In this document: in pieces, positions 4,554-16,100 of the stretch
How the letters are laid out: the number at the start of each line of letters is the position of its first letter
Numbering within the stretch: the first letter of the stretch is position 1
Virus record (IMG/VR): IMGVR_UViG_3300045988_130311
DNA: 16,694 bases
Reading direction: 5' to 3' (one strand)
Source of the DNA: a virus
Notes under the pieces: model-generated
The model's database searches: none
Seen by the model: only the letters and a program-made list of their open reading frames with translations
What the model was told of the DNA's origin: nothing
Made by a program: the position numbers and the translations under genes

Positions 4554-4573
4554 GACAAGGAAAGGAAAAAATC

Positions 4574-4987
4574 ATGGCTGGAAAGATCCGCACGCTCGGA
4601 CCAGGCATCTTCAAAATCACCGACACCGAAAACGGCAGGGACTTCAGCGCCGACCTGACCAAAGCGCAGCTGAACCCGTCGAACAGCAGCGACGACCCGA
4701 CCACCTACCTCGACGGATCAGAGGAGACGAACACCACGACCACATGGACGTTCGAGGGCACCGTCGGCGACGACTTCAGCGAGGACGGTCTGGCCGTCTG
4801 GCTCTTCGACCACAAGGGCGAGACGCTGCCGGCCCAGTTCGTTCCGAACAATACCGGCAAGATCCAGTGGACCTTCAACGTCACCATCGCGCCAATCGCC
4901 ATCGGCGGCGACGTCAAATCGAAGAACACGAACGATCTGAGCTTCGCCGTCACGAACGTCGCCCACGCACCGTACACGGGCAAGTGA
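4574..4987 (+). CDS. Major tail (tube) protein
   Basis: Strong RBS (AAGGAAAGGAAAAAATC ATG) after a short intergenic gap. The 137-aa product has LGPGIFKI...DFSA...IGGDVKSKNT motifs like small actinophage tail tube proteins. Confidence 0.7.
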   Translation: MAGKIRTLGPGIFKITDTENGRDFSADLTKAQLNPSNSSDDPTTYLDGSEETNTTTTWTFEGTVGDDFSEDGLAVWLFDHKGETLPAQFVPNNTGKIQWTFNVTIAPIAIGGDVKSKNTNDLSFAVTNVAHAPYTGK

Positions 4988-5370
4988 TGGCCGGCAAGGC
5001 ATTGATGGTCGTCGGCCAGAAACGCTTCGTTCAGACGATGCGCGCGGTCGGCGCGGACATGGACGACCTGAAGGAAGTGAACCGCGAGGCGGCAGAGATA
5101 GCGCTGCCAGCGGTCCGCAACCTCGCGCCGCGCGGCAAGACCGGCAGGTTGGCCGGCAGCCTGCGTGTCGGAGCGACGAAACGCGCCGGCGTCATCCGCG
5201 CCGGCCGCAAGGCCGTGCCATACGCGGGCCCAATCAATTACGGCTGGCCGAAACGGCACATCCGGCCACGGCTCTTCGTCAACAACGGTGTCGCTTCCAC
5301 CGAGAGCCAATGGCAAAAGGTCTACAAGGACTTCATCGACAAGACACTGAAGCAAGTGAAAGGAAAATAA
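4987..5370 (+). CDS. HK97 gp10-family head-tail/tail-completion protein
   Basis: ATG overlaps the upstream stop. The motif APRGKTGRLAGSLRV...VPYAGPINYG resembles the HK97 gp10 family signature (P..TG.L..S...YA..vefG). Confidence 0.65.
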   Translation: MAGKALMVVGQKRFVQTMRAVGADMDDLKEVNREAAEIALPAVRNLAPRGKTGRLAGSLRVGATKRAGVIRAGRKAVPYAGPINYGWPKRHIRPRLFVNNGVASTESQWQKVYKDFIDKTLKQVKGK

Positions 5371-5642
5371 TGGCAACCACGAGAATCACCTACACGGACG
5401 GTACCAGCGAACTCGTGCCGATCACGATGCGCGCGACCTGCAAGGCCGAGGCGCACGCCATCGACGCGGGCTGGGGGCCAATCACCCAGTCACCCGTCCG
5501 TTCCGGCGCTTACGCGGCCTACGCGGCCCTGCGCATGGCCGGCCGCAGCATGCCTGATTTCGAGCATTGGCTGGACACCGTGGCGTCCTTCGACCTTGCG
5601 GCAGCGACGGAGGAACCGGAAGAGGGAAACCCTACGGACTAG
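5370..5642 (+). CDS. Tail assembly chaperone (G-like, zero-frame product)
   Basis: 90-aa ORF directly upstream of the tape measure gene. It ends just after a GGGAAAC slippery heptamer. Confidence 0.8.
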   Translation: MATTRITYTDGTSELVPITMRATCKAEAHAIDAGWGPITQSPVRSGAYAAYAALRMAGRSMPDFEHWLDTVASFDLAAATEEPEEGNPTD

Positions 5643-5800
5643 CCGCGTGGCCCCAAGACTCGCTCGGCCGTCTCTCGTTCCTCCTGGCAAGCCGTTTCGG
5701 CGGCACGCCATGGCAGTGGAGGAACGAGGCCGACGAATTGGATTGGGGCACCGGACTGGCCGAACTGCTCAAGGAAGCGGAAGAAACACGGAAGGAGTGA
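5370..5800 (+). CDS. Tail assembly chaperone, -1 frameshift fusion (G-T-like)
   Basis: The -1 frame is open from the slip site (5624-5630) to 5800 and ends 4 nt before the tape measure start. This matches the conserved G/GT architecture. Confidence 0.7.
5624..5630 (+). other. Programmed -1 ribosomal frameshift slippery heptamer G_GGA_AAC
   Basis: The X_XXY_YYZ pattern lies in the zero frame of the chaperone gene, 4 codons before its stop. Confidence 0.7.
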
Positions 5801-5803
5801 GCC

Positions 5804-7669
5804 ATGGCGCACAGCGCGATCATGAGCGTGCGCATCACCGGCAACGCCGATGATGCCGTCAAGGCGTTCGAGAAGACCACCACGAAGGCGGCCGCTTTCG
5901 GCAGCGCCATCGGCGGATTGGCCGTCAAGGGCGTGACCGCGCTGTGGGACACCATCAAGGGCTTCGCCGGCGACGTGGTGAACATGTCGGACAGCACCGA
6001 CAAGTTCATGAACACCATGAGCTTCGCCGGCATCGACACCAAAGCCGTGCAGGCAGCCACGAAGGAAACCCGCAAATACGCCGACGCCACCGTGTACGGC
6101 CTCGATGACATCCAGAACACCACCGCGCAGCTGGCGGCAAACGGCATCGGCAACTACATGGAACTGACCGAGGCGGCCGGCAACCTCAACGCGGTGGCCG
6201 GAGGCAACGCCGACAGTTTCAAAAGCGTGGCCATGGTCCTCACCCAGACCGCCGGCGCCGGAAAACTCACCACGGAGAACTGGAACCAGCTTGCCGACGC
6301 CATCCCTGGCGCGTCCGGCAAACTCCAGGAGGCGCTGCTGAAGAACGGCGCGTACACGGGCAACTTCCGCGACGCCATGGCCAAGGGCGAGATCACGGCC
6401 GACGAGTTCAACCAGGCGCTGCTGGACCTCGGCATGACCGACGTGGCGAAACAGGCCGCGACATCGACCAGCACCATCGAGGGAGCCATGGGAAACCTCG
6501 AAGCCGCCGTGGTCGGTGGTCTGACCGACGCGTTCAACCTGTTCAAACCTGCCGTGACCGGCGGCATCAACGCGGCATCAACTGCCGTGACCAGTCTGGC
6601 CACCACCGGCGTGCAGGGATTGCAGACGTTCTTCGGCCAGGTCAAGGACACCGGAGCGTTCACCGCCTTGCAGTCGGCCGCGCAGTCGGTCGGCGGCGGC
6701 CTGCAATCATTGTGGAACGGCATCATGGCGGTCGTGAATGCGATGACCGGAGGACAGCCGGCGGGAACCGCGTTCGGCAACGTGCTCAACACCGTCGCCA
6801 CGGCCGCGCAGACGGTCGGCGGCTGGCTGAAGACCGCCGGCGACTGGATCAGTCGAAACACGGATCTCGTGACCCCCCTCGTGGCCGCGATCGGCGGAGC
6901 CGTGGCGGCCGTCACCGCCGTCACCACCGCCATGCGGATTGCCGCCGTCGCTCAAGCGCTGCTCAACGCGGTCATGGCCGCGAACCCGATCATGCTGGTC
7001 ATCACGCTCATCGCAGCGCTCGTGGCCGGACTCACCTACTTCTTCACCTGCACCAACACCGGCAAGGCCGTCTGGTCGAGCTTCACCGGCTTCCTTGGCT
7101 CCTGCGTGCAGGGCATCATCGGCTTCTTCTCCGGTCTCGGCTCCACCATCGTCAACATCTTCAACTCGGCAGCGAACGGGGCAAGGAACGCATGGAACGG
7201 CGTAGTCGGCTGGTTCCGCGGACTGCCAAGCTCCATAGCCGGGTTCTTCGGCAACGCCGGCAGCATCCTGTACAACGCCGGCGCAAGCATCATCAGCGGT
7301 TTCCTCAACGGCCTCAAATCGATGTGGAGCAACGTGACCGGCTGGATCAGCGGCATCGGCGACTGGATCAAGGCCCACAAGGGCCCGATCAGCTACGACC
7401 GTCGCCTGCTCATCCCCGCCGGCCAGGCCATCATGACCGGTTTCGCACAGGGCCTCAACACCGGGTTCGACAGCAACGTCGAGACCGCTATCAGCCGCGC
7501 CAACCGCAGACTAGCGGCCATGCCCCTCAACCTCTCCGCCCAGGGCAACACGGCCACGCCAGTGGTCAACACCTGGAACGTGGAGATCAACGGCGAGGTC
7601 ATCGACAAGGACGGCACCGCCAAGGCCATCAAACGGCTTCTGGCCGACTACGACGCAAGGAGGTCGTGA
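5804..7669 (+). CDS. Tape measure protein
   Basis: 621 aa with RBS GGAAGGAG. The N-terminus resembles the TP901-type tape measure domain (ADATVYGLDDIQNTTAQLAANG, NWNQLADAIPGASGKL). The central part is a hydrophobic Gly/Ala-rich segment. Confidence 0.9.
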   Translation: MAHSAIMSVRITGNADDAVKAFEKTTTKAAAFGSAIGGLAVKGVTALWDTIKGFAGDVVNMSDSTDKFMNTMSFAGIDTKAVQAATKETRKYADATVYGLDDIQNTTAQLAANGIGNYMELTEAAGNLNAVAGGNADSFKSVAMVLTQTAGAGKLTTENWNQLADAIPGASGKLQEALLKNGAYTGNFRDAMAKGEITADEFNQALLDLGMTDVAKQAATSTSTIEGAMGNLEAAVVGGLTDAFNLFKPAVTGGINAASTAVTSLATTGVQGLQTFFGQVKDTGAFTALQSAAQSVGGGLQSLWNGIMAVVNAMTGGQPAGTAFGNVLNTVATAAQTVGGWLKTAGDWISRNTDLVTPLVAAIGGAVAAVTAVTTAMRIAAVAQALLNAVMAANPIMLVITLIAALVAGLTYFFTCTNTGKAVWSSFTGFLGSCVQGIIGFFSGLGSTIVNIFNSAANGARNAWNGVVGWFRGLPSSIAGFFGNAGSILYNAGASIISGFLNGLKSMWSNVTGWISGIGDWIKAHKGPISYDRRLLIPAGQAIMTGFAQGLNTGFDSNVETAISRANRRLAAMPLNLSAQGNTATPVVNTWNVEINGEVIDKDGTAKAIKRLLADYDARRS

Positions 7670-9183
7670 TGCAGCAATGCTTCATGTTCATCGACACCGG
7701 CAGCGGCTGGACGCCGGTGAACGATTCCGCCAAGGACATCGCGGCCCTAGACTCGTTCACCATCGATTGGGGCAGCGACAGCATCGACGAACAACCGGAA
7801 CCCATCGTGATGTCGTTCACCCTGCGCGACCGGACCGGACGGCTGGCCGGCCAGGCATTGACATTGGCCGGCATGAAAGTGGTCGTGCAGTTCTCCAACC
7901 AGCCGCGATGGATGGACCTGACGCCAGCGATGGGCAGCTGGCAAGATCTGCGCATCCCCATCGACTCGCTACACAGGGCGTATTCCCCAGTCTCTCCGGA
8001 CTCGCCGGACTCGCCGGCCATGACGATGTTCGCCGGCACCGTCTCCACCGGCGGCAGCGTCGAACCGGCCAGCGGCGGCGGGTGGCTGCTCAAACTCTCC
8101 GCCACATCGAGGATGGCCGTGTGGAAGCGCCTGCAATCCCAAGGACCGACAGACACGGCCGCGAAATGGAACGGCGCGCACTGGATAGGCACGCCGGCCG
8201 CACGCCTCGCGGAGATGAACCGCCGGGCATCGGCGCAGGGAGCTCCGGAAGCACAACTGGACGGCCTCGCCCTGCCATCAAGCGTCACGCCATACACGCC
8301 ATCCGACCATCCATCGCAGCTCGACCTGCTGCACCGGCTCACCGCCGGCCCACGACTCCCGCAATGGCATGAGGTCTACGACGGCGCTACATCAAGCCTC
8401 CGGCCATTGTTCCTCGCCGACCCGATCGCCGTGCACCTGTCGTCGGACGGCCGTCTCAGCATCCTCACCGGCGGAGAGACACGTCACGCGCTCTCGGCGT
8501 CCGACATCGAGGCATCGACCGATCTGAGCATCCCCGAACCATTGACTCAGGTCGTCATCAACGCGAAACGCGTCAAATCGGACAACGGCAAGCTCTCGTT
8601 CGATGACGTCGAGATCACGATGGGAGACCAGAACCGTCTGCCCTCCCAATTGACCGCCACGCAGAAGAGCCTCACCCTCGATTCCGACATGCTCGCAATC
8701 GATGACTCAGGCGGCGTGTGGAACAGCGGGGCCACGTCGAACGTCAGCGACACCGACCGCGCGAACGTCGCGCAATGGCTCGAATCGCACGACCTGCGAA
8801 TGGTCCCGGAGACAGTGACGTTCAACAGCACGCGAATCGACCCGGCGCGCCTGCCATGGCTGTACAAGGCGAGCCCGTCCGGCCCGTTCATCATCGTCAA
8901 GGCCAAGGCGTCGGCACTGACCGGCTCAGATGGCCGGCCTGCTTTCACCGGCCCCATCACGACCATCGGCGGGACGCTCTCATACCGGTGGCGCAACGGC
9001 AAGCCGACGCTCACCCAGGAAGCGACGCTGGCCGCGCTCCGGCCGCTGCTGACGAAACGGATCACATGGACCGACCTGCCCACCCTCAGCTGGCAGCAGC
9101 TCGACCTGCACATCTGCGACCTCTCGATGATCCAGATCATCGACACTTCTTCGCCCACCGCCGAAAAGGAAGGAACACAATGA
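7669..9183 (+). CDS. Minor tail protein (tail tip / distal tail candidate)
   Basis: AAGGAGG lies upstream and the ATG overlaps the tape measure stop. 504 aa, located directly after the tape measure gene. The part of track ORF 6712..9183 upstream of 7669 is Arg-rich out-of-frame junk overlapping the tape measure gene. Confidence 0.8.
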   Translation: MQQCFMFIDTGSGWTPVNDSAKDIAALDSFTIDWGSDSIDEQPEPIVMSFTLRDRTGRLAGQALTLAGMKVVVQFSNQPRWMDLTPAMGSWQDLRIPIDSLHRAYSPVSPDSPDSPAMTMFAGTVSTGGSVEPASGGGWLLKLSATSRMAVWKRLQSQGPTDTAAKWNGAHWIGTPAARLAEMNRRASAQGAPEAQLDGLALPSSVTPYTPSDHPSQLDLLHRLTAGPRLPQWHEVYDGATSSLRPLFLADPIAVHLSSDGRLSILTGGETRHALSASDIEASTDLSIPEPLTQVVINAKRVKSDNGKLSFDDVEITMGDQNRLPSQLTATQKSLTLDSDMLAIDDSGGVWNSGATSNVSDTDRANVAQWLESHDLRMVPETVTFNSTRIDPARLPWLYKASPSGPFIIVKAKASALTGSDGRPAFTGPITTIGGTLSYRWRNGKPTLTQEATLAALRPLLTKRITWTDLPTLSWQQLDLHICDLSMIQIIDTSSPTAEKEGTQ

Positions 9184-9803
9184 CAGCAACAACACCAATC
9201 TACGGCCTCTCGTATCCCGAAGGCTCCGACCTCGTATCAACCGCGCCGGACTCGTTCAAGAGCATGGCCGACACGTTCGAGAAGGCGCTTGACCAAGTGG
9301 ACCGGAGGACCACGCCGGAAGGCGTCAAACCGGCCGTCGCGACCACCCTCGAAGCCCTTCGGCAGATCACCGGCGTCATCGGCCAAACAGGTTTCGTCAC
9401 CGGCGGCAACGACGACAACGGCCCATATGTGTGGGACGGCGCGCAATGGGTCAAGACCAGAACCGCCGACATGCCATGGAACGGCACTTGGAGACTCAAC
9501 TCGCGGATTTACACCGGACGCAAATGGGTGGACGGCCGCCGCATCTGCATGCAGGTCCGAGAATACAAGAACCTGACCAACAACTCGCGCACCCCACCGG
9601 GCTTCAGCATCTACAGCCTACTGGACTACCGCGTCATCACCCAAGGAAAAGGCGGCTCGCCCCAACCGTACCTCGCCACCGACACCTACTGGCATTCAGA
9701 AGTCACGGTCACACCATCCGAGATCATCGTACGCAAAGGCGCATCGAACACGAGCGCGCTCAACGTCTGGATCGTCTACATCTACACGGAGCCCGACGCG
9801 TGA
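9180..9803 (+). CDS. Minor tail protein (receptor-binding candidate)
   Basis: ATGA overlap with the upstream gene, 207 aa. It is the last structural gene before the lysis cassette. The N-terminus PIYGLSYPEGSDL resembles actinophage minor tail proteins. Confidence 0.75.
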   Translation: MTATTPIYGLSYPEGSDLVSTAPDSFKSMADTFEKALDQVDRRTTPEGVKPAVATTLEALRQITGVIGQTGFVTGGNDDNGPYVWDGAQWVKTRTADMPWNGTWRLNSRIYTGRKWVDGRRICMQVREYKNLTNNSRTPPGFSIYSLLDYRVITQGKGGSPQPYLATDTYWHSEVTVTPSEIIVRKGASNTSALNVWIVYIYTEPDA

Positions 9804-10027
9804 CGGATCTCATCATCGCCATCGTCGGCGCAGTCGGCGCGGTCGTCGGCGCACTGGTCTCCACCCTCTCGGCCGCCGCGAAGAACAAGATGGAAGCCTA
9901 CCGGCTCGCGCAGAAGATGCAGGCCGACAACCAACGCCTCTGGCAATGGAACCGGCAACTCATCGACCACATCTACAGGCGCACCCCACCACCGCCGCCG
10001 GAGCCGCCGGAAGACCTGTTCGACTAA
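9800..10027 (+). CDS. Small membrane protein (one N-terminal TM helix, coiled region, Pro-rich tail); lysis-associated candidate
   Basis: GTG start overlaps the upstream stop (GTGA). The hydrophobic LIIAIVGAVGAVVGALVSTL segment is followed by an amphipathic region and PPPPPEPPE. Confidence 0.6.
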   Translation: MTDLIIAIVGAVGAVVGALVSTLSAAAKNKMEAYRLAQKMQADNQRLWQWNRQLIDHIYRRTPPPPPEPPEDLFD

Positions 10028-10045
10028 AGGAAGGAAAGGAACCAC

Positions 10046-10843
10046 ATGAGCGGCATCATCTGGAAAGGAAGCCCGAACCATTACGTTGGCCGCAACGGCT
10101 ACGGCGTCACGCACATCACGCTGCACATCATGGTTGGATACCTCGCCGGCACCGATTCCACGTTCGCCAACCAGTCGAGCCGAGCATCGGCCCACTACGG
10201 CGTCGGCGCGACCGGAGAGATCCACCAATACGTGTCGGAACTCGACGGCAGCTATTCGGACGCGAACTACGCATCGAATAATTCGACCATCAGCATCGAG
10301 CACGAGGGCGGCATGGCCGACGGCGCGGTATGCACCCAGGAGTGCATCGACGCAAGCGCCAGACTGTGCGCCGACATCGCGAGAAGGTACGGATGGAAAA
10401 AACTGTGGCACGACGGCCTGAAAGGCAATGTGTGGCTGCACAGGGAGATTCCAGGCACCGACCACCTCGCCTGCCCCGATCTCGCGCCCAACGGACTGCC
10501 ATACAAGCAGATCATCGACCAAGCAAACCGAATCCTTGAAGGAGGAACCATGTCCAACGCAGGCGACGAAGTATGGAACTGGGCATACAAGCCCAACGGA
10601 AAGAACGCCACACCGGGCGGCAACATGTACAATCTGCTCACCTACGAGCTGCCGCAGCGCATCCGCGACAGCATCATGCAATACAGCTACAAGGGCTCGG
10701 CACCGGGCGGCAACATCTACAACACCATCTGCTTCGAGATCCCCGGAATGCTGAAACAGCTCACCAAGACCCTTGAAGCGCAGCAGAAGCAGATCAGCGA
10801 ATTGTCCGAAAAAATCAGCAAGCTGGAAGGGACCGCGAAATGA
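10046..10843 (+). CDS. Endolysin, N-acetylmuramoyl-L-alanine amidase (amidase_2/PGRP-like) with C-terminal repeats
   Basis: RBS AAGGAAGGAAAGGAAC. The N-terminus (SPNHY.GRNGYGVTHITLHIMVG..., SAHYGV, ISIEHEG, HREIPGTDHLACP) is typical of zinc amidase endolysins. Two PGGN(M/I)YN repeats and a coiled coil lie at the C-terminus. Confidence 0.85.
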   Translation: MSGIIWKGSPNHYVGRNGYGVTHITLHIMVGYLAGTDSTFANQSSRASAHYGVGATGEIHQYVSELDGSYSDANYASNNSTISIEHEGGMADGAVCTQECIDASARLCADIARRYGWKKLWHDGLKGNVWLHREIPGTDHLACPDLAPNGLPYKQIIDQANRILEGGTMSNAGDEVWNWAYKPNGKNATPGGNMYNLLTYELPQRIRDSIMQYSYKGSAPGGNIYNTICFEIPGMLKQLTKTLEAQQKQISELSEKISKLEGTAK

Positions 10844-11190
10844 CCGACACGACGGAAAACCGACTCCCGACGGCCAACACAACGGAGGATGACGCAATGC
10901 CCGTCTCGGCGCAGATCATGGCCGCCGCCGATGGCAACGCCGAGGCAACGACGCCGAGAATCGACAGCGGCACAATATCCAGATTCCTCGTGCTGCTCCT
11001 TGCGCTTGTCAACCAGGGACTGACCATGTTCGGCCATCCGGTGCTCAACATCGATGACACGACCATCACGCAGCTCGTGAGCCTCGCATGGACAGCCGGC
11101 AGCGCCATCTGGTGCTACTGGAAGGACAACGACGTGACCGCGAAAGCCCGCGTCAAAAAGGCGAGGCTGTCGGCACGTCACGCGGCCTAG
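10840..11190 (+). CDS. Holin (two TM helices, basic C-terminus)
   Basis: ATGA overlap with the endolysin stop. The TM segments are ISRFLVLLLALVNQGL and ITQLVSLAWTAGSAIWCYW. The charged tail is KDNDVTAKARVKKARL. Confidence 0.7.
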   Translation: MTDTTENRLPTANTTEDDAMPVSAQIMAAADGNAEATTPRIDSGTISRFLVLLLALVNQGLTMFGHPVLNIDDTTITQLVSLAWTAGSAIWCYWKDNDVTAKARVKKARLSARHAA

Positions 11191-12014
11191 ATAAGCCGGA
11201 CGGCCGCCGTGGCTTCTCTCAGACGGCCGTCCGGCATCGCAACGTAATGCTCCGTGGTCTCAACCGATTCATGGCCGAGCAGTTCGGCGACCACGAACAG
11301 GTCGTGTGTGGCGGCGTAGGCCGTGGTGGCGAACCGGTGGCGCAGCGTGTGCGCGGCGTATCCGTCCGGCAGCAGATGACTGATGTGGTCACCGATATAG
11401 GACTCCTCCACATGGCCGACGAACCGGCCAGGGAACAGGTAGCCACGCGCGTCCATGATGATGTCGGCCAAATCATCCGGCAACGGCACTATGCGCTGCT
11501 TGTCGCCTTTGCCGCGCACGATCAATGACCGGCCGGCGCTGTCGGCCACGACGTCATCGCTGTGGACCCGCGCGATCTCGCCACGCCGCAGTCCGCACTC
11601 CGCACCGAGCCGGATCATGAGTTTTTCCGACGACGTGGCCTTCTCCATCGCCGCAGCGATGTAACGGTCCGGGCATGGTCTGGGATGCGCGTGCGGCTTC
11701 TTCACGCGTGGCACGTCCAGGCTCGGGTCGTCGCTTCTCCGGCCGCTTTTGTGCAACCATCGGAAGAACGACGATATGGTGTTCCTGTACGCTTTGCGCG
11801 TCTCGGGTTTCCATTGCTGCCGTGCGAACGTCTGCACGATCTGCTCCGTGGTCACGTCTTTGGGGCCTGATGGCATGAGCAGCGCCGCGAGATGGACCAT
11901 CTTGTATCGTCGGCTTTTGATTGTCTGTGCTGATAGGCCGGCCGCCTTGAGGGTGTCAGTCCACCCTTCGATGCTTTTGCGCCATGGGACCGGTGCGCTG
12001 ATCTTGTTTCTCAT
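11187..12014 (-). CDS. int: Tyrosine recombinase / phage integrase (XerC/D-like, 275 aa)
   Basis: The catalytic signature is visible: GLRRGEI (Arg), KGDKQR (Lys), HTLRHRF (His-x-x-Arg), LLGHES (His), TTEHY (Tyr). Its stop overlaps the holin stop (CTAG). Confidence 0.92.
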   Translation of the reverse strand: MRNKISAPVPWRKSIEGWTDTLKAAGLSAQTIKSRRYKMVHLAALLMPSGPKDVTTEQIVQTFARQQWKPETRKAYRNTISSFFRWLHKSGRRSDDPSLDVPRVKKPHAHPRPCPDRYIAAAMEKATSSEKLMIRLGAECGLRRGEIARVHSDDVVADSAGRSLIVRGKGDKQRIVPLPDDLADIIMDARGYLFPGRFVGHVEESYIGDHISHLLPDGYAAHTLRHRFATTAYAATHDLFVVAELLGHESVETTEHYVAMPDGRLREATAAVRLI

Positions 12015-12018
12015 GATC

Positions 12019-12042
12019 CATCATGCACCCCATCATGCACCC
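12019..12042. repeat. Tandem 12-bp direct repeat CATCATGCACCC x2, 4 nt upstream of the int start (reads GGGTGCATGATG x2 on the int strand)
   Basis: Two exact adjacent copies read directly from the sequence. Confidence 0.9.
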
Positions 12043-12101
12043 CTGGCTTTAAGCGGTTAAAATGAGCTCGGATAAGCTCAGAAGCCCCATGGATTTGAAC
12101 C

Positions 12102-12635
12102 TTGGACCTCTGGTATCTAGAGGTCTATGACCCCGGCGTGGCCCACACGTTGCTGCTCGCCGGCAAGCAGGGGCTGACCAACATTCGCGTGGCCCAGGTC
12201 AATGCGCCCGAGCTGTTCAAGGTGACCGCGGCCGGCACCGTGGCCGAGGTATGGACCTTCTTCCCCGACCCTTGGCCCAAGAAGAAGCACCACAAGCGCC
12301 GCATCGTGCAGAAGGCCATGGCCGGCGACATTCATCGCGCGCTGGTCACAGACGGCGTCTGGCGTATCGCCACCGACATCGAGGACTATGCCCTGCACGT
12401 GCACGAGGTGATGGACGGCCTCGATGGCTGGAAGAACCTGGGCAGCATAACCGTCAGCCTCCCGCTGGAGCACGTGGGCAAGGGCAACGCCGATCTGGCC
12501 GCCGACATGCCGCACGCCGACTTCACCGAATCCGAGCGGTTCGAGGGCCGCGTGCTCACCAACTTCGAAAAGAAGGGCCTGGCCGCCGGCCGCGTGATTC
12601 ACGACTTTACCTATCAGGCCGTTACCTTGAACTAA
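12102..12635 (+). CDS. trmB: tRNA (guanine46-N7)-methyltransferase TrmB, 3-prime fragment lacking the N-terminal SAM-binding motif
   Basis: YLEVYDPGV...GLTNIRV...[17 protein letters not shown]...RIATD...FEKKG aligns with the E. coli TrmB motifs GIEVHSPGV, LSNLRV, FFPDPWHKARHNKRRIV, ATD and FEQRG. The GxGxG region is absent. An in-frame stop at about 12075 limits any upstream extension. The frame is intact with high GC3. Confidence 0.85.
12105..12125. other. Candidate attP core: perfect inverted repeat GACCTCT-GGTATCT-AGAGGTC (7-7-7)
   Basis: Perfect 7-bp inverted arms around a 7-bp spacer, about 90 bp upstream of int. It lies exactly where the trmB-homologous coding sequence begins. This geometry matches tyrosine-recombinase core sites. 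Confidence 0.45.
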
Positions 12636-12661
12636 TCACGACACGCCGAAATGCCGTCGAT

Positions 12662-12916
12662 TTGCATAACCGAACAACCTCCCGTAAAGTAATTCAAGAA
12701 CAGCGTACGATCGCCAAGCAGGTTCGCGGCAAGTTGCGTGCAAATCACGTCACGCAACGAGAGCTAGCGGACTCTGTGGGAATGAGCGAACAAGCGTTGT
12801 CGAACAAGCTTCGCGGCCTGAAGAACTTCACACTGCGTGATGTGTCGCGTATAGCCGACTTCTTCGACGTTTCCACCGATTTCGTGCTTGGCCGAGAGCC
12901 ATTGGAGGTGAAGTGA
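12662..12916 (+). CDS. XRE-family helix-turn-helix transcriptional regulator (Cro/CI-like)
   Basis: HTH signature IAKQVRGKLRANHVTQRELADSVGMSEQALSNKLRG. No in-frame ATG lies upstream of the HTH outside trmB, so a TTG at 12662 is proposed as the start. No clear SD, so the start is uncertain. Confidence 0.65.
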   Translation: MHNRTTSRKVIQEQRTIAKQVRGKLRANHVTQRELADSVGMSEQALSNKLRGLKNFTLRDVSRIADFFDVSTDFVLGREPLEVK

Positions 12917-13098
12917 TGCTGATTCATGACGCTTCGGGTGCTGTTGCCGTCGTATCGGCTGAATCGGTGAGGATTGTCGGCGAGGGTTGCATTGTCCTTA
13001 ATGCGCGCGCCGTGTACATCCATAATCAGGCGCTGACGTCAGAGCAGGCCGCGATTGTCAAGCGTGGTGTCATGGCCACGCTCGACGATCCAGCGGCG

Positions 13099-13341
13099 TT
13101 AGAAGATCTGCATGGGAAGCACGACGTCGCCAGCGTCGATCTGCCACCACGGGACGGCCTTGGGGTTGATGGTGATGGCGTGGATGCTCATGTCGGGAAA
13201 CCTGACGGTCTGGATGAAGCTGTCACCGGACTTCAGACGTTCGGAGAGTTCACTGACCGTGGAGGCCGTCGCGCCGGTGATGGTAAGCGGCGTGGTCGTT
13301 CCCAGGTAAAGGGCGAAGTCGAATGTGGTTTCGTCGCTCAT
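13099..13341 (-). CDS. Hypothetical 80-aa protein; besides int, the only gene on the minus strand
   Basis: Strong RBS on the minus strand (GAAGGAAGGAAGAACA ATG). GC3 is high in this frame and low (T-rich) in the overlapping plus-strand ORF. Confidence 0.7.
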   Translation of the reverse strand: MSDETTFDFALYLGTTTPLTITGATASTVSELSERLKSGDSFIQTVRFPDMSIHAITINPKAVPWWQIDAGDVVLPMQIF

Positions 13342-13448
13342 TGTTCTTCCTTCCTTCGTTGTTTGAAAGGTTTGGTTTGTGCGATTACAAGCCTATCGCT
13401 GCGGAGGAAGGAGCCTAACCGTCCATCCATGAATCAAGGAGCAGTGAA

Positions 13449-13685
13449 ATGAGCGTTTTCAATCCGGAATGCACCAGCAATTACTTCCAGGTGCTGGACA
13501 TCGACCCGTCGGAATGCACCGGCGGCAATCCCTACCGCTTCGCCTGCCGCATCAAGGTGGGCGGACGATCGTTCGGGTTCGATGGTTTGGACATGGGCGA
13601 CCTTCAGACGATGAAGGGCGCGATCAACAAGGCGATGACGCACGCGCGTCGAGCTCGCCGTGAATGGGAAGGAACCCAGGAATGA
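13449..13685 (+). CDS. Hypothetical 78-aa protein
   Basis: RBS AAGGAGCAGTGAA ATG. The downstream gene is translationally coupled to it. Confidence 0.65.
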   Translation: MSVFNPECTSNYFQVLDIDPSECTGGNPYRFACRIKVGGRSFGFDGLDMGDLQTMKGAINKAMTHARRARREWEGTQE

Positions 13686-13840
13686 GCGTCACAGTCAAAC
13701 GTGTGGACAGGAAAAGCAGGCAACGTTTTTACGAGCTGATCGTTGAGACGGAAGAAGGCATCACCGTGCGCGTCCCGTTCAACGGTTACGAGCTTGACGA
13801 TCTTGAGAAACAGATCGACCGATGCTTCAACGAGGATTGA
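13682..13840 (+). CDS. Hypothetical 52-aa protein
   Basis: ATGA overlap with the upstream stop. Translation is MSVTVKRVDRKSRQRFYELIVETEEGITVRVPFNGYELDDLEKQIDRCFNED. It is below the ORF-track size cut-off. Confidence 0.5.
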   Translation: MSVTVKRVDRKSRQRFYELIVETEEGITVRVPFNGYELDDLEKQIDRCFNED

Positions 13841-13841
13841 C

Positions 13842-13955
13842 GTGAAACGTTTCATCAAGACCGTTCTTCTGATTCTGCTCAGCCCGTTCGTGTTCCTCAT
13901 GTTCGGGCTTGTCCTCGCCATTGTCCGGTTTGGTGATTTCCTCACCGACGACTGA
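13842..13955 (+). CDS. Hypothetical 37-aa single-pass membrane peptide
   Basis: GTG start 1 nt after the upstream stop. The hydrophobic core is TVLLILLSPFVFLMFGLVLAIV. Confidence 0.4.
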   Translation: MKRFIKTVLLILLSPFVFLMFGLVLAIVRFGDFLTDD

Positions 13956-14344
13956 CGGCATCCGATAACTTCATAGCCCTTGACCCAGCCGAAGGTCGGT
14001 TGCCGGGTAGGCGTGATAAAGCACCCGGCCGCGCCTTGCCCAGCGCGTTACAAACACGCCCGGAATGCCGGGCGGTTACCACGGCCCCAGCGGGGGAGCT
14101 ATGCGGGTGTACACAGATCGCTTCACGGCGTCTTGTTCGGGCGCAACTGGGGACCATCGCCGGCATACGTGCCGGGCTGTGCGGCGAGACCTTGCGCGCG
14201 GCTTCGGCCGCTGACCTATGCGACGGCGCGGCTCCGTTACGAAGCAACCTTGCATGGCGAACCCTAATCCGGAAAACACTTGAGCAATCTTGTGTTTTCC
14301 GGGCTGGGTTCCCCGCTCTAACGCCCCACCACCCGAAGGGCACA

Positions 14345-14387
14345 TCATCCACAATTCTTATCCACTTATCCACAGTTCTTATCCACA
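14345..14387 (+). promoter_or_regulatory. Array of four same-orientation DnaA-box-like repeats (TCATCCACA, TTATCCACT, TTATCCACA, TTATCCACA); candidate origin iterons or operator
   Basis: Read directly at 14345-14353, 14358-14366, 14366-14374 and 14379-14387. Two copies match the E. coli DnaA box consensus TTATCCACA exactly. The longer unit TTCTTATCCAC occurs twice. The array ends 22 nt before the ATG at 14409. Confidence 0.6.
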
Positions 14388-14408
14388 ATATGAAACGAGG
14401 TTCGAGAC

Positions 14409-14750
14409 ATGGGTTATTCGGTTGATTACAAGCCAACACGCCGACGTGCCAAGAGGACGGTGCCGAAGAACAAGGCCCAACGCACGAAGGACATCAAGAA
14501 CGCCATTCGATGGAATATCAGGCAATTGGAGCATGACACTGTTGGAGCGGACACCATTGCGCGTTCCCTTGCCATCAGTATGCTTCGACTGAACAAGATC
14601 GCGCCGACGGCCGACCCTAGCGGCGACCATGTGATGCAGCAGCTTATCAGCGACGGTATCTTGGGCAAGACCGAGAGGCGCGGAAGTGTGCAGGTGTTCG
14701 ACCGTGCCGAGTTGTTGACATCGCTCAAGGCTTGGGTTGGTGTGCTGTGA
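14409..14750 (+). CDS. Hypothetical DNA-binding protein (basic N-terminus plus HTH/winged-helix-like region)
   Basis: GAGG lies 8 nt upstream of the ATG. The N-terminus RRRAKRTVPKNKAQRTK is basic. The segments ADTIARSLAISMLRLNKI and QQLISDGILGKTERRGSVQVF look like HTH/wing elements. This is the first gene after the repeat array. Confidence 0.7.
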   Translation: MGYSVDYKPTRRRAKRTVPKNKAQRTKDIKNAIRWNIRQLEHDTVGADTIARSLAISMLRLNKIAPTADPSGDHVMQQLISDGILGKTERRGSVQVFDRAELLTSLKAWVGVL

Positions 14751-14956
14751 ACCCGCGCGCGAAGCTCACGGCCAAACAGGCGGCCCTATATCTGGGCGTG
14801 AGCGAAAGCCTGTTGCGCAAGTGGCGCGGCGAACATTACGGCCCGGTGTTCTACCGGCCCACGGACGCGCCCAACTGCCCCGTGCTGTACGAGTTGTCGG
14901 ACTTGGACATGTTCGTAGCGCAGCGCAAACGCAAGGCGGCCCAGAGTGCCGCGTAG
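14747..14956 (+). CDS. Excisionase/AlpA/MerR-type HTH DNA-binding protein
   Basis: GTGA overlap with the upstream gene. LTAKQAALYLGVSESLLRKWR...GP.F......VLYELSDLDMF matches the excisionase-family HTH pattern. Confidence 0.7.
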   Translation: MNPRAKLTAKQAALYLGVSESLLRKWRGEHYGPVFYRPTDAPNCPVLYELSDLDMFVAQRKRKAAQSAA

Positions 14957-15668
14957 ACAAGTAGTCGCCCCGTCAATCCGTTCGGCCGAGATAGCGGCGT
15001 GGGGCAACGACTGTTGGTTGGAATTGCCCGGCTGTACGAAGGTGGGCACCGAAGACGATCACATAGTGCCACACGCGCACGGCGGCAAGGACACCGTGCC
15101 GAACCTACGCCGCGCGTGCAAGCACTGCAACGCCTCGCGGCAAGACCGCGTGCTGTATGGCTATGGCTGCCGCTTGCACATGATCGTATGCCCGCCCGGC
15201 TCATGCGACCGGGAGGCCGTGGACTACATAGCCCAGCACGCGAAGCCAAGCGACCCGGTTGTGTCGTATGCTTCGCTGGCCGCCGCCATGCGCGTGGATG
15301 AAGCGGACATGGAGCAGCGGCGGGCCGCGGCTATGGCATGGTCTGCCGCCTACCGCCAGTTCGCCAAGAGCCGCGCGCCGTTGGACGTGTGGCTGGTGCG
15401 CACCATACCAGCCAGCCGCAAGCACCCGCAGATGCTGGCCGAGTGGATAGCGCTGGACTACGACATACAGGTGCTGGACCCAGGCTATGCCGAGAGCATG
15501 GCACGGGCACGTAACGACATGCACCGGCAGCTGGTGCGCCAGTGGTACGCCCTCCACCTGTCACAAGAGACGATAGACGCGAGGCAAGCGGCCCGCCGCC
15601 ATCGACTCGCGGCCCTTGGCTTGCGTTCCATGCCATCTTCGGTGCCTTCATCGCGCCCGGAATGGTGA
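14946..15668 (+). CDS. HNH endonuclease fused to a ~170-aa C-terminal domain of unknown function
   Basis: HNH motif DHIVPHAHGGKDTVPNLRRACKHCNASR in the first ~70 aa. GTG start overlaps the upstream gene. It is located just before the small terminase gene, as in HNH-dependent cos phages. Confidence 0.8.
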   Translation: MPRRQVVAPSIRSAEIAAWGNDCWLELPGCTKVGTEDDHIVPHAHGGKDTVPNLRRACKHCNASRQDRVLYGYGCRLHMIVCPPGSCDREAVDYIAQHAKPSDPVVSYASLAAAMRVDEADMEQRRAAAMAWSAAYRQFAKSRAPLDVWLVRTIPASRKHPQMLAEWIALDYDIQVLDPGYAESMARARNDMHRQLVRQWYALHLSQETIDARQAARRHRLAALGLRSMPSSVPSSRPEW

Positions 15669-15682
15669 TTTTTTAAACTCAC

Positions 15683-15714
15683 GGCGCCGGGAAAGACCCC
15701 GCGCCCAGTTTTTT
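15683..15714 (+). terminator. Rho-independent terminator after the HNH gene
   Basis: GC-rich stem GGCGCCGGG / CCCCGCGCC (one C-C mismatch), loop AAAGA, followed by CAG and six T (15709-15714). Confidence 0.65.
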
Positions 15715-15739
15715 CTCCCCCCAACACGGGAGAAAAAAC
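15708..15739. repeat. Perfect 12-bp inverted repeat GTTTTTTCTCCC (8-nt loop) GGGAGAAAAAAC
   Basis: Read directly. It shares the T-run with the terminator and lies in the HNH-terS intergenic region, where cos sites of HNH phages usually map. Confidence 0.8.
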
Positions 15740-15785
15740 GGCACGAAAACGTTGGAACATCAAGGAAAAGAAAGGATACGGATAA

Positions 15786-16100
15786 ATGAGCCAAAACACG
15801 TTCGACATTTTCGACGATACCGCCGGCCGGCACGTCGGGCAACAGGAAAAGGCCACCCGTCGGCTGATCGAGAGCCTTACCGAGCGTTCGGGCGGCGACC
15901 TTGACCCGTTCGCCACCACGCTATGCGCCAGCCTGTTGTCCTTGGCCCAGAACATCGACACACAGCGCAACGCCGGCAAGGAGATCAGCCGCAACATGAA
16001 CACGTACCTGGACAACGTGCAGCGCCTTCAGGACATGTACCCGCCGGAACCGAAGGTGGACGAAGACGTGGCCGCCTACTTGGCCGAGGCGAAGGCATGA
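15786..16100 (+). CDS. terS: Terminase small subunit (assigned by position)
   Basis: 104-aa ORF whose stop overlaps the terL ATG (ATGA). RBS-like GAAAGGA lies upstream. No diagnostic motif was recognised. Confidence 0.55.
   Translation: MSQNTFDIFDDTAGRHVGQQEKATRRLIESLTERSGGDLDPFATTLCASLLSLAQNIDTQRNAGKEISRNMNTYLDNVQRLQDMYPPEPKVDEDVAAYLAEAKA

What the first reader, a model, noticed from the sequence alone, without database searches (positions are those of the whole stretch)
12636..15785. Complete temperate siphovirus in 16.6 kb with no identifiable DNA replication genes
The morphogenesis, lysis and integration modules all look complete. Everything else fits in about 3.1 kb: an XRE regulator, one 80-aa minus-strand ORF, three peptides of 37-78 aa, a 113-aa HTH-like protein, an excisionase-like HTH protein and an HNH fusion. 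No motif for a polymerase, primase, helicase, Rep/initiator, SSB or recombinase was seen. Known actinophages of about 14-17 kb with protease-MCP fusions are, as far as I recall, lytic. A temperate one this small would be close to a minimal temperate tailed-phage gene set. Its replication is presumably carried out entirely by host machinery.
Basis: inference. Interest (0 to 1): 0.62.

Follow-up and report, generated by a model that had tools for sequence, protein, structure and literature searches.

The report
Known small Bifidobacterium phage, rearranged copy
The window is the 16.6-kb circular genome of an already described family of very small Bifidobacterium phages that carry no replication genes, but this copy has exchanged its attachment site, repressor and early promoter for 579 bp of host DNA, so it is not a complete temperate phage.

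Summary
The gene inventory is right. Nothing between 12636 and 15785, or elsewhere in the window, resembles a polymerase, primase, helicase, Rep, SSB or recombinase (Pfam, PHROGs, PDB profiles, two AlphaFold models). The same holds for 80 related loci, whose early region is only 1.2-3.3 kb.

This is not new. The phage belongs to the tRNA-Met-integrating bifidoprophages Bl-1, 689b-1 and Bb423phi2 (Mavrich 2018). Cultured temperate siphoviruses of the same size and layout exist, such as Gordonia phage Emperor (16,604 bp) and Cluster CW.

"Complete temperate" is wrong for this copy. Positions 12117-12695 are host chromosome: the trmB 3' end plus 53-60 nt including the likely tRNA-Glu promoter. 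This patch replaces the attP core, the immunity repressor, the operator/promoter region and the first three codons of the cro-like gene. Both junctions are illegitimate joins. Two relatives (L082, L024) carry independent rearrangements at the same point.

The only candidates for recruiting the host replisome are cis elements:
- a ~380-nt structured element with strong covariation (13963-14345);
- four host-type DnaA boxes (14345-14387);
- the adjacent 113-aa winged-helix protein.

Their role in replication is inferred, not shown. Earlier notes of this scan describe the same family and fold on other DNA.

The parts
11187..12014 (-). Tyrosine integrase, 275 aa, short form without a recognisable arm-binding domain
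   Evidence: Pfam Phage_integrase 1.9e-18; PHROG 1 integrase 5.9e-36; 98% nt identity to the integrase region of the prophage in G001
12088..12113 (.). Left arm of the attP palindrome, a phage-borne inverted copy of the tRNA-Met T-arm. In wild-type relatives it faces the tRNA-derived core across a 5-nt spacer. Here the right arm (the core) is missing.
   Evidence: wild type reads GGACCTCTGG-TATCC-CCAGAGGTCC...CTACCA; the window reads GGACCTCTGG-TATC-TAGAGGTCTATGACC
12117..12695 (+). Host chromosomal patch: the last 172 codons of trmB (tRNA m7G46 methyltransferase, stop at 12633-12635) plus 53-60 nt of the trmB/tRNA-Glu spacer with the probable tRNA-Glu promoter (TTGCAT-17 nt-TAAAGT, 12662-12690)
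   Evidence: Pfam Methyltransf_4 2.4e-26; GC3 0.88; 97% identity over window 12116-12698 to chromosomal trmB loci of G051 and G122; tRNA-Glu begins 65 nt after the trmB region in the host. The promoter assignment is inference.
12688..12695 (.). Right junction: 8-bp microhomology AGTAATTC shared by the host spacer and codons 3-5 of the phage cro-like gene
   Evidence: three-way comparison of host L088/L090, window and wild-type phage L013. The same junction occurs in an independent gut-metagenome contig, L126, at 99.8% identity.
12662..12916 (+). Cro-like XRE regulator, 5'-truncated: the native GTG-AGT-TTA start and the upstream operator/promoter region are replaced by host sequence
   Evidence: Pfam HTH_3 1.1e-8; homology to 75 relatives starts only at 12688
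13099..13341 (-). 80-aa minus-strand ORF in the variable cargo slot; relatives carry unrelated minus-strand genes of 200-274 aa here
   Evidence: GC3 0.73; present in 16 loci; no family hit; cargo of relatives has no replication domains
13449..13840 (+). Two paralogous small proteins, 78 aa (13449-13685) and 58 aa (13664-13840), function unknown
   Evidence: Conserved in 57 and 37 loci; they align with each other; no Pfam, PHROG or PDB hit
13842..13955 (+). Membrane peptide of about 37 aa
   Evidence: Hydrophobic core conserved in 39 loci; relatives start at MTVKRFIK
13963..14345 (+). Conserved structured non-coding element of about 380 nt, folded on the + strand, with an invariant 25-mer GCGCCTTGCCCAGCGCGTTACAAACAC. 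It matches no Rfam family.
   Evidence: 70-75% nt identity across relatives whose flanking protein is about 52% identical. RNAalifold: 64 pairs, 30 with compensatory changes. 94.4% of cells paired against 34-49% in slid controls, 23 pairs with double changes, conserved U-G pairs. Rfam search: nothing. Model R1 finds it once per prophage in 6 of 151 Bifidobacterium genomes and finds a short form in all family types tested.
14345..14387 (+). Four same-orientation DnaA boxes: TCATCCACA, TTATCCACT, TTATCCACA, TTATCCACA
   Evidence: 6 matches in the window against 1.13 expected. The host dnaA-dnaN spacer uses TT[A/T/G]TCCACA, including three perfect TTATCCACA. Copy number is 0-5 in relatives, and where present the boxes lie just upstream of the 113-aa gene.
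14409..14750 (+). 113-aa protein: basic disordered tail (1-21), long helix, winged-helix domain
   Evidence: AF2 pLDDT 82.7. Best PDB fold matches are ArsR/MarR/ROQ/ORC-type winged helices, none below E 0.08. 239 homologues, all unnamed Bifidobacterium phage proteins.
14732..14956 (+). 74-aa excisionase/MerR-like HTH protein
   Evidence: Pfam HTH_17 8e-5; PHROG 66 excisionase 7.8e-5
14946..15668 (+). HNH endonuclease fused to a P-loop kinase-like domain. The Walker A motif is degenerate here (CPPGSCDRE) and intact (GPPCAGKS/T) in some relatives. It sits next to terS, so it probably belongs to the packaging module.
   Evidence: Pfam HNH 6e-8; AAA_33 5e-7 in L052/L081/L025; AF2 pTM 0.80 with fold hits to adenylate and polynucleotide kinases, probability 0.98-1.00
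15786..16100 (+). Terminase small subunit; start of the packaging and morphogenesis operon, which runs across the window ends to 11190
   Evidence: Synteny with TerL (PHROG 9, 4.4e-34), portal, protease-MCP fusion and the rest

Best explanation
The window is the circular form of a small cos-type siphovirus of human-gut Bifidobacterium. It belongs to the published family of tRNA-Met-integrating prophages of about 16-18 kb (Bl-1, 689b-1, Bb423phi2) that use integration-dependent immunity.

The family encodes no replisome component and no recognisable initiator. [quoted passage not shown] Replication must therefore be carried out by the host replisome.

Inferred: the host replisome is recruited through cis elements in the only non-coding block. 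These are a conserved structured element of about 380 nt on the + strand, followed in this clade by host-type DnaA boxes. The adjacent 113-aa winged-helix protein may take part. This would resemble Rep-less origins such as ColE1 RNA II with its DnaA box, or ori-pLS20.

This particular genome is a rearranged derivative. A 579-bp piece of host chromosome, the trmB 3' end plus the spacer carrying the likely tRNA-Glu promoter, has replaced four things: the tRNA-derived attP core, the repressor gene, the operator/promoter region and the first three codons of the cro-like gene. Both joins are illegitimate. The left one has 1-2 nt of microhomology at the centre of the 57-bp attP palindrome. The right one has 8 bp of microhomology.

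The derivative can neither integrate at tRNA-Met nor establish immunity. It is best read as a repressor-less variant of the lambda gal/bio or vir type, whose early operon may now be driven by a captured host promoter (inference).
For: Family membership:
- 94-99% nt identity to the prophage in G001 (a B. angulatum MAG) and to IMG/VR record G002.
- 75 related IMG/VR loci, many on contigs of 16.2-18.5 kb.
- Organism titles are Bifidobacterium.
- The G001 prophage is flanked by tRNA-Met(CAT) and a 38-nt repeat of its 3' end.
- This matches the att sites, sizes and ssrA-tag logic in PMC6109161.
- The excised-form repressor of L019 ends in ...SKLILAA, whereas the prophage form in G001 stops inside the tRNA.

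No replication genes. The interval from XRE to HNH is 1.2-3.3 kb in 80 loci.

Precedent: Gordonia phage Emperor is 16,604 bp, with a Y-integrase, an immunity repressor, a capsid-protease fusion and HNH, and no replication gene annotated. Cluster CW phages of 17.1-17.7 kb are temperate, and >80% of the coding capacity of these small-genome phages goes to virion genes.

Rearrangement:
- Homology to every relative stops at 12117-12129 and resumes at 12688.
- The interval is 97% identical to chromosomal trmB plus its downstream spacer.
- Junction sequences are shown.
- The right junction was also found in a separate gut-metagenome assembly with 5 mismatches in 2550 nt.
- Independent events occur at the same breakpoint. 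L082 carries 376 bp that are 99% identical to another host locus. L024 has a simple deletion of the core and repressor.

Cis elements.
Against: - Replication, copy number and particle formation are therefore untested.
- Mavrich et al. saw no excision or copy increase of Bb423phi2 after mitomycin C.
- DnaA boxes are absent from several family members: L026, L080, L081 and L100-L103. They cannot be a universal origin.
- The structured element lies directly upstream of the 113-aa gene and the late operon. It could equally be a regulatory leader RNA.
- A winged-helix protein of 113 aa could itself be a minimal initiator that no library recognises.
- The circular contig could come from a chromosomal tandem duplication with the same novel joint rather than from a free circle.
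- The tRNA-Glu promoter assignment rests on position and a weak consensus (7 of 12). The promoter scan reported no site in 11900-15900.
Confidence: 0.8

Rival explanations
1. The trmB fragment is a designed part of the phage. On this reading the phage integrates into host trmB and carries a replacement 3' end so the gene stays intact, and it is a complete temperate phage with a new target site.
For: - The fragment is in frame through its stop codon and lies next to int.
- The junction forms a 7-7-7 palindrome, GACCTCT-GGTATCT-AGAGGTC.
- The trmB site resembles the right half-site of attP in 8 of 10 positions.
- The same right junction occurs in a second assembly.
Against: - No immunity repressor is left, and the cro-like gene is truncated at codon 3 with loss of its promoter and operators.
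- The patch continues 53-60 nt beyond trmB into the tRNA-Glu spacer and ends at an 8-bp microhomology, which a replacement copy does not need.
- The integrase region is 98% identical in nucleotide sequence (window 11382-12125) to that of a tRNA-Met-integrated relative.
- The left joint is out of register with attP by 2 nt, so it is not a conservative exchange.
- Neither joint occurs in IMG/VR. The left joint is also absent from 241 million metagenome records.
- Relatives L082 and L024 show other accidents at the same breakpoint.
Confidence: 0.07
2. The phage does encode a replication initiator. The 113-aa winged-helix protein, or its 102-111-aa counterparts in other module types, binds the adjacent non-coding block and recruits the host helicase. 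On this reading 'no replication gene' reflects only the limits of homology detection.
For: - Winged-helix domains are the DNA-binding modules of lambda O and of plasmid RepA/pi initiators (general knowledge).
- The gene is always next to the structured block and, where present, the DnaA boxes. The set behaves as an exchangeable cassette.
- Weak fold matches include ORC and Cdt1 winged helices.
Against: - Fold matches are generic, with best E 0.088 and TM about 0.3-0.45.
- There is a single winged-helix domain and no oligomerisation or helicase-interaction region.
- No iterons other than the DnaA boxes are present, and those are missing in many relatives.
- The C-terminus resembles Xis/MerR-type HTH_17 proteins, and a second such protein follows it. 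A role as a transcription or excision factor fits equally well.
Confidence: 0.2
3. The family does not replicate autonomously. Its members are cryptic or helper-dependent elements inherited with the chromosome, and the small size reflects decay.
For: Bl-1 and 689b-1 were first classed as cryptic. Bb423phi2 showed no excision or copy increase after mitomycin C.
Against: - All virion, lysis and packaging genes are intact in the window and its relatives.
- The family is mosaic and spread over many Bifidobacterium species.
- Excised-order contigs with an intact attP exist (L019, L053).
- Phages with integration-dependent immunity are typically insensitive to mitomycin C.
- Cultured phages with the same architecture and size form plaques.
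Confidence: 0.1
4. The circle is not a free phage genome. It is the repeat unit of a chromosomal tandem duplication, or an assembly path, of a prophage lying next to trmB.
For: A tandem duplication with the same novel joint gives the same cycle in an assembly graph. L126 breaks exactly at the trmB boundary, as expected if the chromosome carries an identical trmB.
Against: - An 8-bp microhomology is far too short to cause a false assembler join.
- The unit length of 16,575 bp is within the family's packaged size range.
- L082 shows the same kind of substitution from another host locus in excised order.
Confidence: 0.15

Closest known systems
tRNA-Met-integrated bifidoprophages Bb423phi2 (18,221 bp), 689b-1 (18,260 bp) and Bl-1 of B. 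longum NCC2705 (Mavrich et al. 2018, Sci Rep 8:12772, PMC6109161; Ventura et al. 2005)
   Same: Same genus, and close relatives use the same att core (tRNA-Met 3' end). Same small size and gene order, with most genes structural. Relatives have the integrase next to att, and a repressor gene that crosses attP and gains an ssrA-like tail in the viral form.
   Different: This copy lacks the att core and the repressor and carries host trmB DNA instead. The paper passages I read (term searches) mention neither the structured element nor the DnaA boxes, and they give no replication mechanism for this group.
Small temperate Gordonia phages: Emperor (16,604 bp, MH271296) and Cluster CW (17.1-17.7 kb; Pope et al. 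2017, PMC5559632)
   Same: Plaque-forming siphoviruses with a capsid-protease fusion and HNH next to terS. Emperor has an annotated Y-integrase and immunity repressor, and Cluster CW uses integration-dependent immunity. They have a right arm of 2-3 kb made of small HTH and unknown genes, with no annotated replication gene. TerL is 32-34% identical.
   Different: Different host order. They integrate at tRNA-Lys. No sequence or covariance-model match to the structured element.
Lytic mini-siphoviruses: Rhodococcus RRH1 (14.3 kb), Arthrobacter Cluster AN (15.5 kb), Gordonia Schiebs (14.6 kb)
   Same: Same structural gene set and protease-MCP fusion. No annotated replication genes where I read the annotation (Schiebs); for RRH1 and Cluster AN the texts I saw do not discuss replication. 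TerL is about 32% identical.
   Different: No integrase annotated in Schiebs; RRH1 and Maggie are described as seemingly lytic.
Lambda gal/bio specialised transducing phages and lambda vir / clear-plaque deletion mutants (textbook knowledge)
   Same: Phage DNA next to att is replaced by neighbouring or other host DNA through illegitimate recombination, with loss of immunity functions while unit length is kept.
   Different: The host piece here is not from the normal integration site. The left break is at the centre of the attP palindrome. Promoter capture is inferred, not shown.
Rep-less origins: ColE1/pBR322 RNA II pre-primer with downstream DnaA box, and ori-pLS20 of Bacillus subtilis (Meijer et al. 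1995), both recalled from memory
   Same: A long structured transcript or region with no initiator ORF, and a DnaA box or boxes just downstream.
   Different: No sequence or fold relationship was tested. The RNA here is C-rich at its 3' end, which does not favour a stable R-loop. The function is untested.

Membership tests
tRNA-Met bifidoprophage family (Bl-1 / 689b-1 / Bb423phi2 type) | Nucleotide or protein similarity over the whole genome to members integrated at tRNA-Met in Bifidobacterium | tested here: met
   94% identity over window 2997-12125 to the G001 prophage flanked by tRNA-Met. 96-99% identity to IMG/VR record G002, a 14.5-kb linear fragment with no att flanks. Bifidobacterium titles.
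tRNA-Met bifidoprophage family (Bl-1 / 689b-1 / Bb423phi2 type) | attP core of about 39 bp identical to the tRNA-Met 3' end | tested here: not met
   No tRNA-like sequence is present in forward orientation. The core is replaced by trmB from 12117. It is present in relatives L019, L053 and G001. This is a loss in this copy, not evidence of different ancestry.
Integration-dependent immunity (Broussard et al. 2013 type) | Repressor gene crossing attP, so that the viral form carries a C-terminal ssrA-like degradation tag | tested here: not met
   The window has no repressor. Relative L019 encodes a 142-aa viral form ending in LILAA, and G001 a 109-aa prophage form ending inside the tRNA. This agrees with PMC6109161.
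Functional temperate phage | Integrase, attachment site and immunity repressor with operators | tested here: not met
   The integrase is intact. The attachment core, the repressor and the operator region are absent.
Phage replication module (any type) | DNA polymerase, primase, helicase, helicase loader, Rep/initiator, SSB or recombinase domain | tested here: not met
   Pfam and PHROGs on all ORFs of the window, and on early and cargo ORFs of relatives. PDB profiles. Fold searches of the two largest unknowns.
DnaA-dependent origin | Cluster of host-type DnaA boxes | tested here: met
   Four boxes lie in 43 bp, two of them perfect. The same box type occurs in the dnaA-dnaN spacer of close host relatives.
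DnaA-dependent origin | Conservation of the boxes in all members that must replicate, and an adjacent AT-rich unwinding element | tested here: not met
   There are 0-5 boxes. They are absent in L026, L080, L081 and L100-L103. The neighbourhood is only moderately AT-richer, 45-50% GC, with no clear unwinding element.
ColE1-type RNA-primed or Rep-less structured origin | Long structured transcript ending at the initiation site; dependence on RNase H and Pol I | not testable with these tools
   The structure and the strand are supported by covariation and by conserved U-G pairs. Transcription, processing and priming cannot be tested here.

The most novel reading that the evidence does not exclude
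The conserved structured element of about 380 nt (13963-14345), with its 97-nt core present in every module type of the family, is a protein-free (Rep-less) replication origin or pre-primer. In the human-gut clade it is assisted by host DnaA bound to the adjacent boxes. A tailed phage would then replicate without any phage-encoded replication protein by a ColE1- or pLS20-like route. Separately, the family repeatedly generates repressor-less variants in which host DNA carrying a promoter replaces the immunity region (window, L082). These would be virulent escape mutants able to grow on homoimmune lysogens.
Probability: 0.25. Interest if true: 0.7.

Novelty: new member of a known kind. Interest (0 to 1): 0.33.

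Why it matters
As stated, the finding is ordinary. Very small siphoviruses without replication genes, temperate ones included, are published and cultured, and this family was described in 2018.

Two points keep some value. First, how such phages start replication is still unexplained. This family offers a concrete, testable candidate: a conserved structured element, host-type DnaA boxes and a small winged-helix protein, all within 0.8 kb.

Second, this genome and two relatives show that the palindromic attP of the family is a hot spot. There the immunity region is lost or exchanged for host DNA. This bears on how virulent variants of gut prophages arise, and on how "complete circular" metagenomic phage genomes should be read.

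Tried and rejected
- Megablast and blastn against 50,697 phage records found nothing for the whole genome or for the non-coding block.
- An Rfam search at E<=1 gave only a chance-level asX2 hit.
- PDB profile searches for the 113-aa family and the 78/58-aa family found nothing. For the HNH fusion they found only the HNH domain.
- The fold search of the 113-aa model gave only generic winged-helix matches.
- The sigma-70 promoter scan found no site in 11900-15900.
- Covariance model R1 did not find the structured element in Gordonia phages Emperor or Schiebs.
- I first read the left trmB junction as a conservative Int crossover at the shared AGAGGTC. I rejected this because the joint is 2 nt out of register with attP, and because the normal crossover must lie inside the 39-bp tRNA identity, which is entirely missing here.
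- I considered that the 12-nt match CGACACGCCGAA to the G001 operator region marked the right junction. I rejected this once the host sequence was seen to run to 12695.
I could not reproduce this. The alternative modules encode proteins of 102-133 aa with no replication hit, and they keep a short form of the element.

Full report
WHAT THE WINDOW IS

The first 119 nt equal the last 119 nt, and terL reads across the join. The window is therefore a closed unit of 16,575 bp.

PHROGs and Pfam assign the genes from 15786 across the ends to 11190 as follows: TerS, TerL, portal, a protease-major-capsid fusion, head-tail connector, major tail protein, Neck1-type tail completion protein, tape measure, minor tail proteins, endolysin and holin. 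A 275-aa tyrosine integrase lies on the minus strand at 11187-12014.

WHICH PHAGE IT IS

- The nearest held genome, G001, carries a prophage 94% identical over window 2997-12125. An IMG/VR record, G002, is 96-99% identical over most of the rest.
- The HNH protein retrieves prophages in B. vansinderenii, B. reuteri, B. biavatii, B. callitrichidarum, B. moukalabense and B. angulatum. G001 is the B. angulatum MAG.
- In G001 the prophage lies between an intact tRNA-Met(CAT) and a 38-nt repeat of its 3' end.
- The XRE protein alone retrieves 75 IMG/VR loci, many on contigs of 16.2-18.5 kb.

This is the family described by Mavrich et al. 2018 (PMC6109161). That paper reports prophages Bb423phi2 (18,221 bp) and 689b-1 (18,260 bp), similar to Bl-1 of B. 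longum NCC2705. They are integrated at tRNA-Met with a 39-bp att site and were once called cryptic because of their size. The paper proposes integration-dependent immunity for them.

I reproduced the immunity logic. In the excised-order relative L019 the minus-strand repressor is 142 aa and ends in ...SKLILAA. In the integrated G001 copy it is 109 aa and stops inside the tRNA.

THE OBSERVATION ON REPLICATION GENES

Pfam and PHROGs give only three kinds of hit:
- XRE/HTH_3 for 12662-12916;
- HTH_17/excisionase for 14732-14956;
- HNH for 14946-15668.

The 113-aa protein has 239 homologues, all unnamed and all from this phage family. Its AlphaFold model (pLDDT 82.7) has a basic disordered tail, a long helix and a winged-helix domain. 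The best PDB matches are generic winged helices at E of 0.09 or worse.

The C-terminal 170 aa of the HNH fusion match Pfam AAA_33 in relatives that keep an intact GPPCAGKS/T Walker A motif. They fold like adenylate or polynucleotide kinases, with probability 0.98-1.00. In the window the P-loop is degenerate (CPPGSCDRE). By position next to terS, this protein belongs to packaging.

The 78- and 58-aa proteins are paralogues of each other and hit nothing.

Across 80 related loci the interval from the XRE gene to the HNH gene is only 1.2-3.3 kb. The variable minus-strand cargo genes and the alternative small-protein modules found there have no replication domain.

The absence of a recognisable replication protein is therefore real and family-wide. 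The caveat is that three small proteins (78, 58 and 80 aa) were not folded.

WHY THIS IS NOT NEW

TerL finds its nearest cultured relatives (31-34% identity) among mini-siphoviruses: Gordonia phages Emperor, SallySpecial, EricDab and Schiebs, Rhodococcus RRH1 and Arthrobacter Cluster AN.

Emperor is 16,604 bp and plaque-forming. It is annotated with a Y-integrase, an immunity repressor, a capsid-protease fusion, one HTH protein, a few hypothetical proteins and HNH, and with no replication gene.

Pope et al. 2017 describe Cluster CW (17.1-17.7 kb) as temperate with integration-dependent immunity. They note that more than 80% of the coding capacity of the small-genome phages is devoted to virion genes.

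"Replication by host machinery" is the standing, untested assumption for the whole group.

THIS COPY IS NOT A COMPLETE TEMPERATE PHAGE

Between int and the XRE gene lies an ORF with GC3 0.88 that matches Pfam Methyltransf_4, the TrmB family. Homology of the window to all relatives stops at 12117-12129 and resumes only at 12688. Window 12116-12698 is 97% identical to the chromosomal trmB locus of two Bifidobacterium genomes, including the spacer downstream of the stop codon.

Wild-type relatives (L019, L053, L012, L013, G001) have these features in the same place:
- the tRNA-derived att core;
- a terminator;
- the minus-strand repressor gene;
- an operator/promoter region;
- the GTG start of the cro-like gene.

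Left joint. Wild type reads GGACCTCTGG-TATCC-CCAGAGGTCC, the centre of a perfect palindrome with 26-bp arms. The window reads GGACCTCTGG-TATC-TAGAGGTCTATGACC, and the host reads GC(C/T)C-TAGAGGTCTATGACC. The joint has 1-2 nt of microhomology and is 2 nt out of register with attP. It is therefore an illegitimate join, not a conservative exchange.

Right joint. The host reads ...CCCGTAAAGTAATTCgag and the phage reads ...GTGAGTTTAGTAATTCAAG. They share the 8-bp AGTAATTC, which removes the first three codons of the cro-like gene.

Neither joint occurs in IMG/VR. The left joint is also absent from 241 million metagenome records. The right joint occurs once more, in a 2,550-bp human-gut contig that matches window 12641-15190 with 5 mismatches. 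The variant is therefore real and has been seen in a second assembly.

Two relatives carry independent accidents at the same point:
- L082 replaces the same region with 376 bp that are 99% identical to another host locus. By my reading of its ORFs, not a family search, this is the divergent promoter region and gene starts of a fructosamine-kinase-like gene and uppP. Its left joint lies in a 6-nt CCCCAG microhomology.
- L024 has a clean deletion of the core and the repressor.

The centre of the attP palindrome thus behaves as a breakage hot spot. Whether the breaks come from integrase cleavage, from hairpin processing or from template switching cannot be decided here.

CONSEQUENCES FOR THE VARIANT (INFERENCE)

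It cannot integrate at tRNA-Met and has no immunity.

In the host, the captured spacer lies immediately upstream of tRNA-Glu(TTC). It contains TTGCAT, a 17-nt spacer and TAAAGT, ending 14 nt before the mature tRNA. In the window this putative promoter points into the truncated cro-like gene and the early operon. L082 likewise brings a host promoter region reading rightward.

I read both as repressor-less variants of the lambda vir or gal/bio type, possibly selected because they escape the immunity of the many lysogens. The promoter is a weak consensus match, and the simple promoter scan reported nothing in 11900-15900.

WHAT COULD START REPLICATION

The only long non-coding stretch (13956-14408) is not empty.

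The structured element:
- It is conserved at 70-75% nt identity in relatives whose neighbouring 113-aa protein is only about 52% identical.
- RNAalifold finds 64 pairs, 30 with compensatory changes.
- On a 12-sequence core alignment, 94.4% of cells pair, against 34-49% when partners are slid. 23 pairs change on both sides, against 5-11 in the controls.
- Several U-G pairs are conserved, which places the fold on the + strand.
- It matches no Rfam family.
- A covariance model finds it once per prophage in 6 of 151 Bifidobacterium species genomes, always between the early genes and the 113-aa gene.
- The model also finds a 97-nt core in the module types that lack the 113-aa gene.

The DnaA boxes:
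- Directly after the element come four same-orientation boxes at 14345-14387. The window has 6 matches against 1.13 expected.
- They are of the type used in the dnaA-dnaN spacer of close host relatives.
- Their number varies from 0 to 5, and they are absent from several members. They cannot be the universal origin.

My working model is that the structured element is the cis-acting start site, in the manner of ColE1 RNA II or ori-pLS20. DnaA boxes would be an accessory helicase-loading aid in the human-gut clade, and the winged-helix protein a possible specificity factor. I put this at roughly 0.25-0.4. The main alternative is that the element is a leader RNA controlling the 113-aa gene and the late operon, with DnaA acting as a transcription factor.

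LIMITS

Junction support, the phage-to-host depth ratio and transcription could not be examined.

Mavrich et al. saw no induction of Bb423phi2 with mitomycin C. They note that phages with integration-dependent immunity are typically insensitive to it.

VERDICT

The observation that no replication gene is present is confirmed. The phage belongs to a known family of a known kind, and this copy is a rearranged, repressor-less derivative rather than a minimal complete temperate phage.

Earlier notes of this scan on other genomes (e1-3489528, e1-3545428) reached the same family assignment and noted the same folded element.

Noticed in passing
window 13963-14345; L013 3092-3188; L009 9417-9513; L019 2562-2675: The structured element comes in a long form of about 380 nt (with the 113-aa gene) and a short form of about 97 nt (model positions 96-194) in module types that lack that gene. 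The 3' half is therefore the universal core of the family.
   Followed up: partly
L082 4798-5173 (IMGVR_UViG_3300045988_099190): A second, independent host-DNA substitution at the same attP breakpoint. It is 376 bp, 99% identical to chromosomal DNA of G069/G123. By my reading of its ORFs this is the divergent promoter region with the starts of a fructosamine-kinase-like gene and uppP. The UppP N-terminus is fused in frame to the C-terminal half of the XRE protein.
   Followed up: partly
L024 2030-2050 (IMGVR_UViG_3300029341_000149): A deletion variant: the att core and the repressor gene are removed between CCCCA and the operator region (CCA microhomology), but the operator/promoter and the cro start are kept. 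This is a clear-plaque-type mutant.
   Followed up: no
L010 709-763 (G001 attR); L019 371-425: Wild-type attP is a perfect 57-bp palindrome: 26-bp arms made of the tRNA T-arm region and a phage-borne inverted copy, around a 5-nt spacer. This is unusual for a tRNA-targeting tyrosine integrase site. All three rearrangements break within 5 nt of its centre.
   Followed up: partly
L126 (ENA OWZO01002984, human gut metagenome), 1-2550: An independent low-coverage contig carries the window's right host-phage joint with 5 mismatches in 2550 nt. It ends exactly at the trmB boundary, as expected if the chromosome of that sample has an identical trmB.
   Followed up: partly
window 14946-15668 versus L052 4523-5293, L081 1728-2480, L025 2182-2952: The kinase-like domain fused to HNH keeps an intact Walker A motif in some clades and has lost it in the window's clade. 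The fusion of HNH with a polynucleotide-kinase-like fold next to terS seems undescribed.
   Followed up: partly
window 13449-13840: The 78-aa and 58-aa early proteins are tandem paralogues with a shared (F/L)(D/N)G..(M/L).DL...I motif.
   Followed up: no
window 14303-14345 and all p113-type relatives: An almost invariant GGTTCCCCGCTCTAAC-N4-CACCA(C/T)CCGAA follows the terminator-like hairpin. Its GGTTCC pairs with GCGAACC upstream of the hairpin (covariation CG/UA), so the hairpin is enclosed in the larger fold rather than being a free terminator.
   Followed up: no
L125 13224-13734 (Gordonia phage Schiebs); L124 15961-16287 (Emperor): The cultured mini-siphoviruses also have one unannotated gap of 0.3-0.5 kb in their short right arm. 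These gaps might hold analogous cis elements. Model R1 does not match them.
   Followed up: partly
L099, L106, L108 (genome contigs titles): Short contigs of this Bifidobacterium phage are binned into MAGs labelled Eggerthellaceae, Senegalimassilia and Dysosmobacter. These are probably binning errors.
   Followed up: no
window 15708-15739: A perfect 12-bp inverted repeat, GTTTTTTCTCCC/GGGAGAAAAAAC, lies between the HNH gene and terS. It is a candidate cos-region or terminator element.
   Followed up: no
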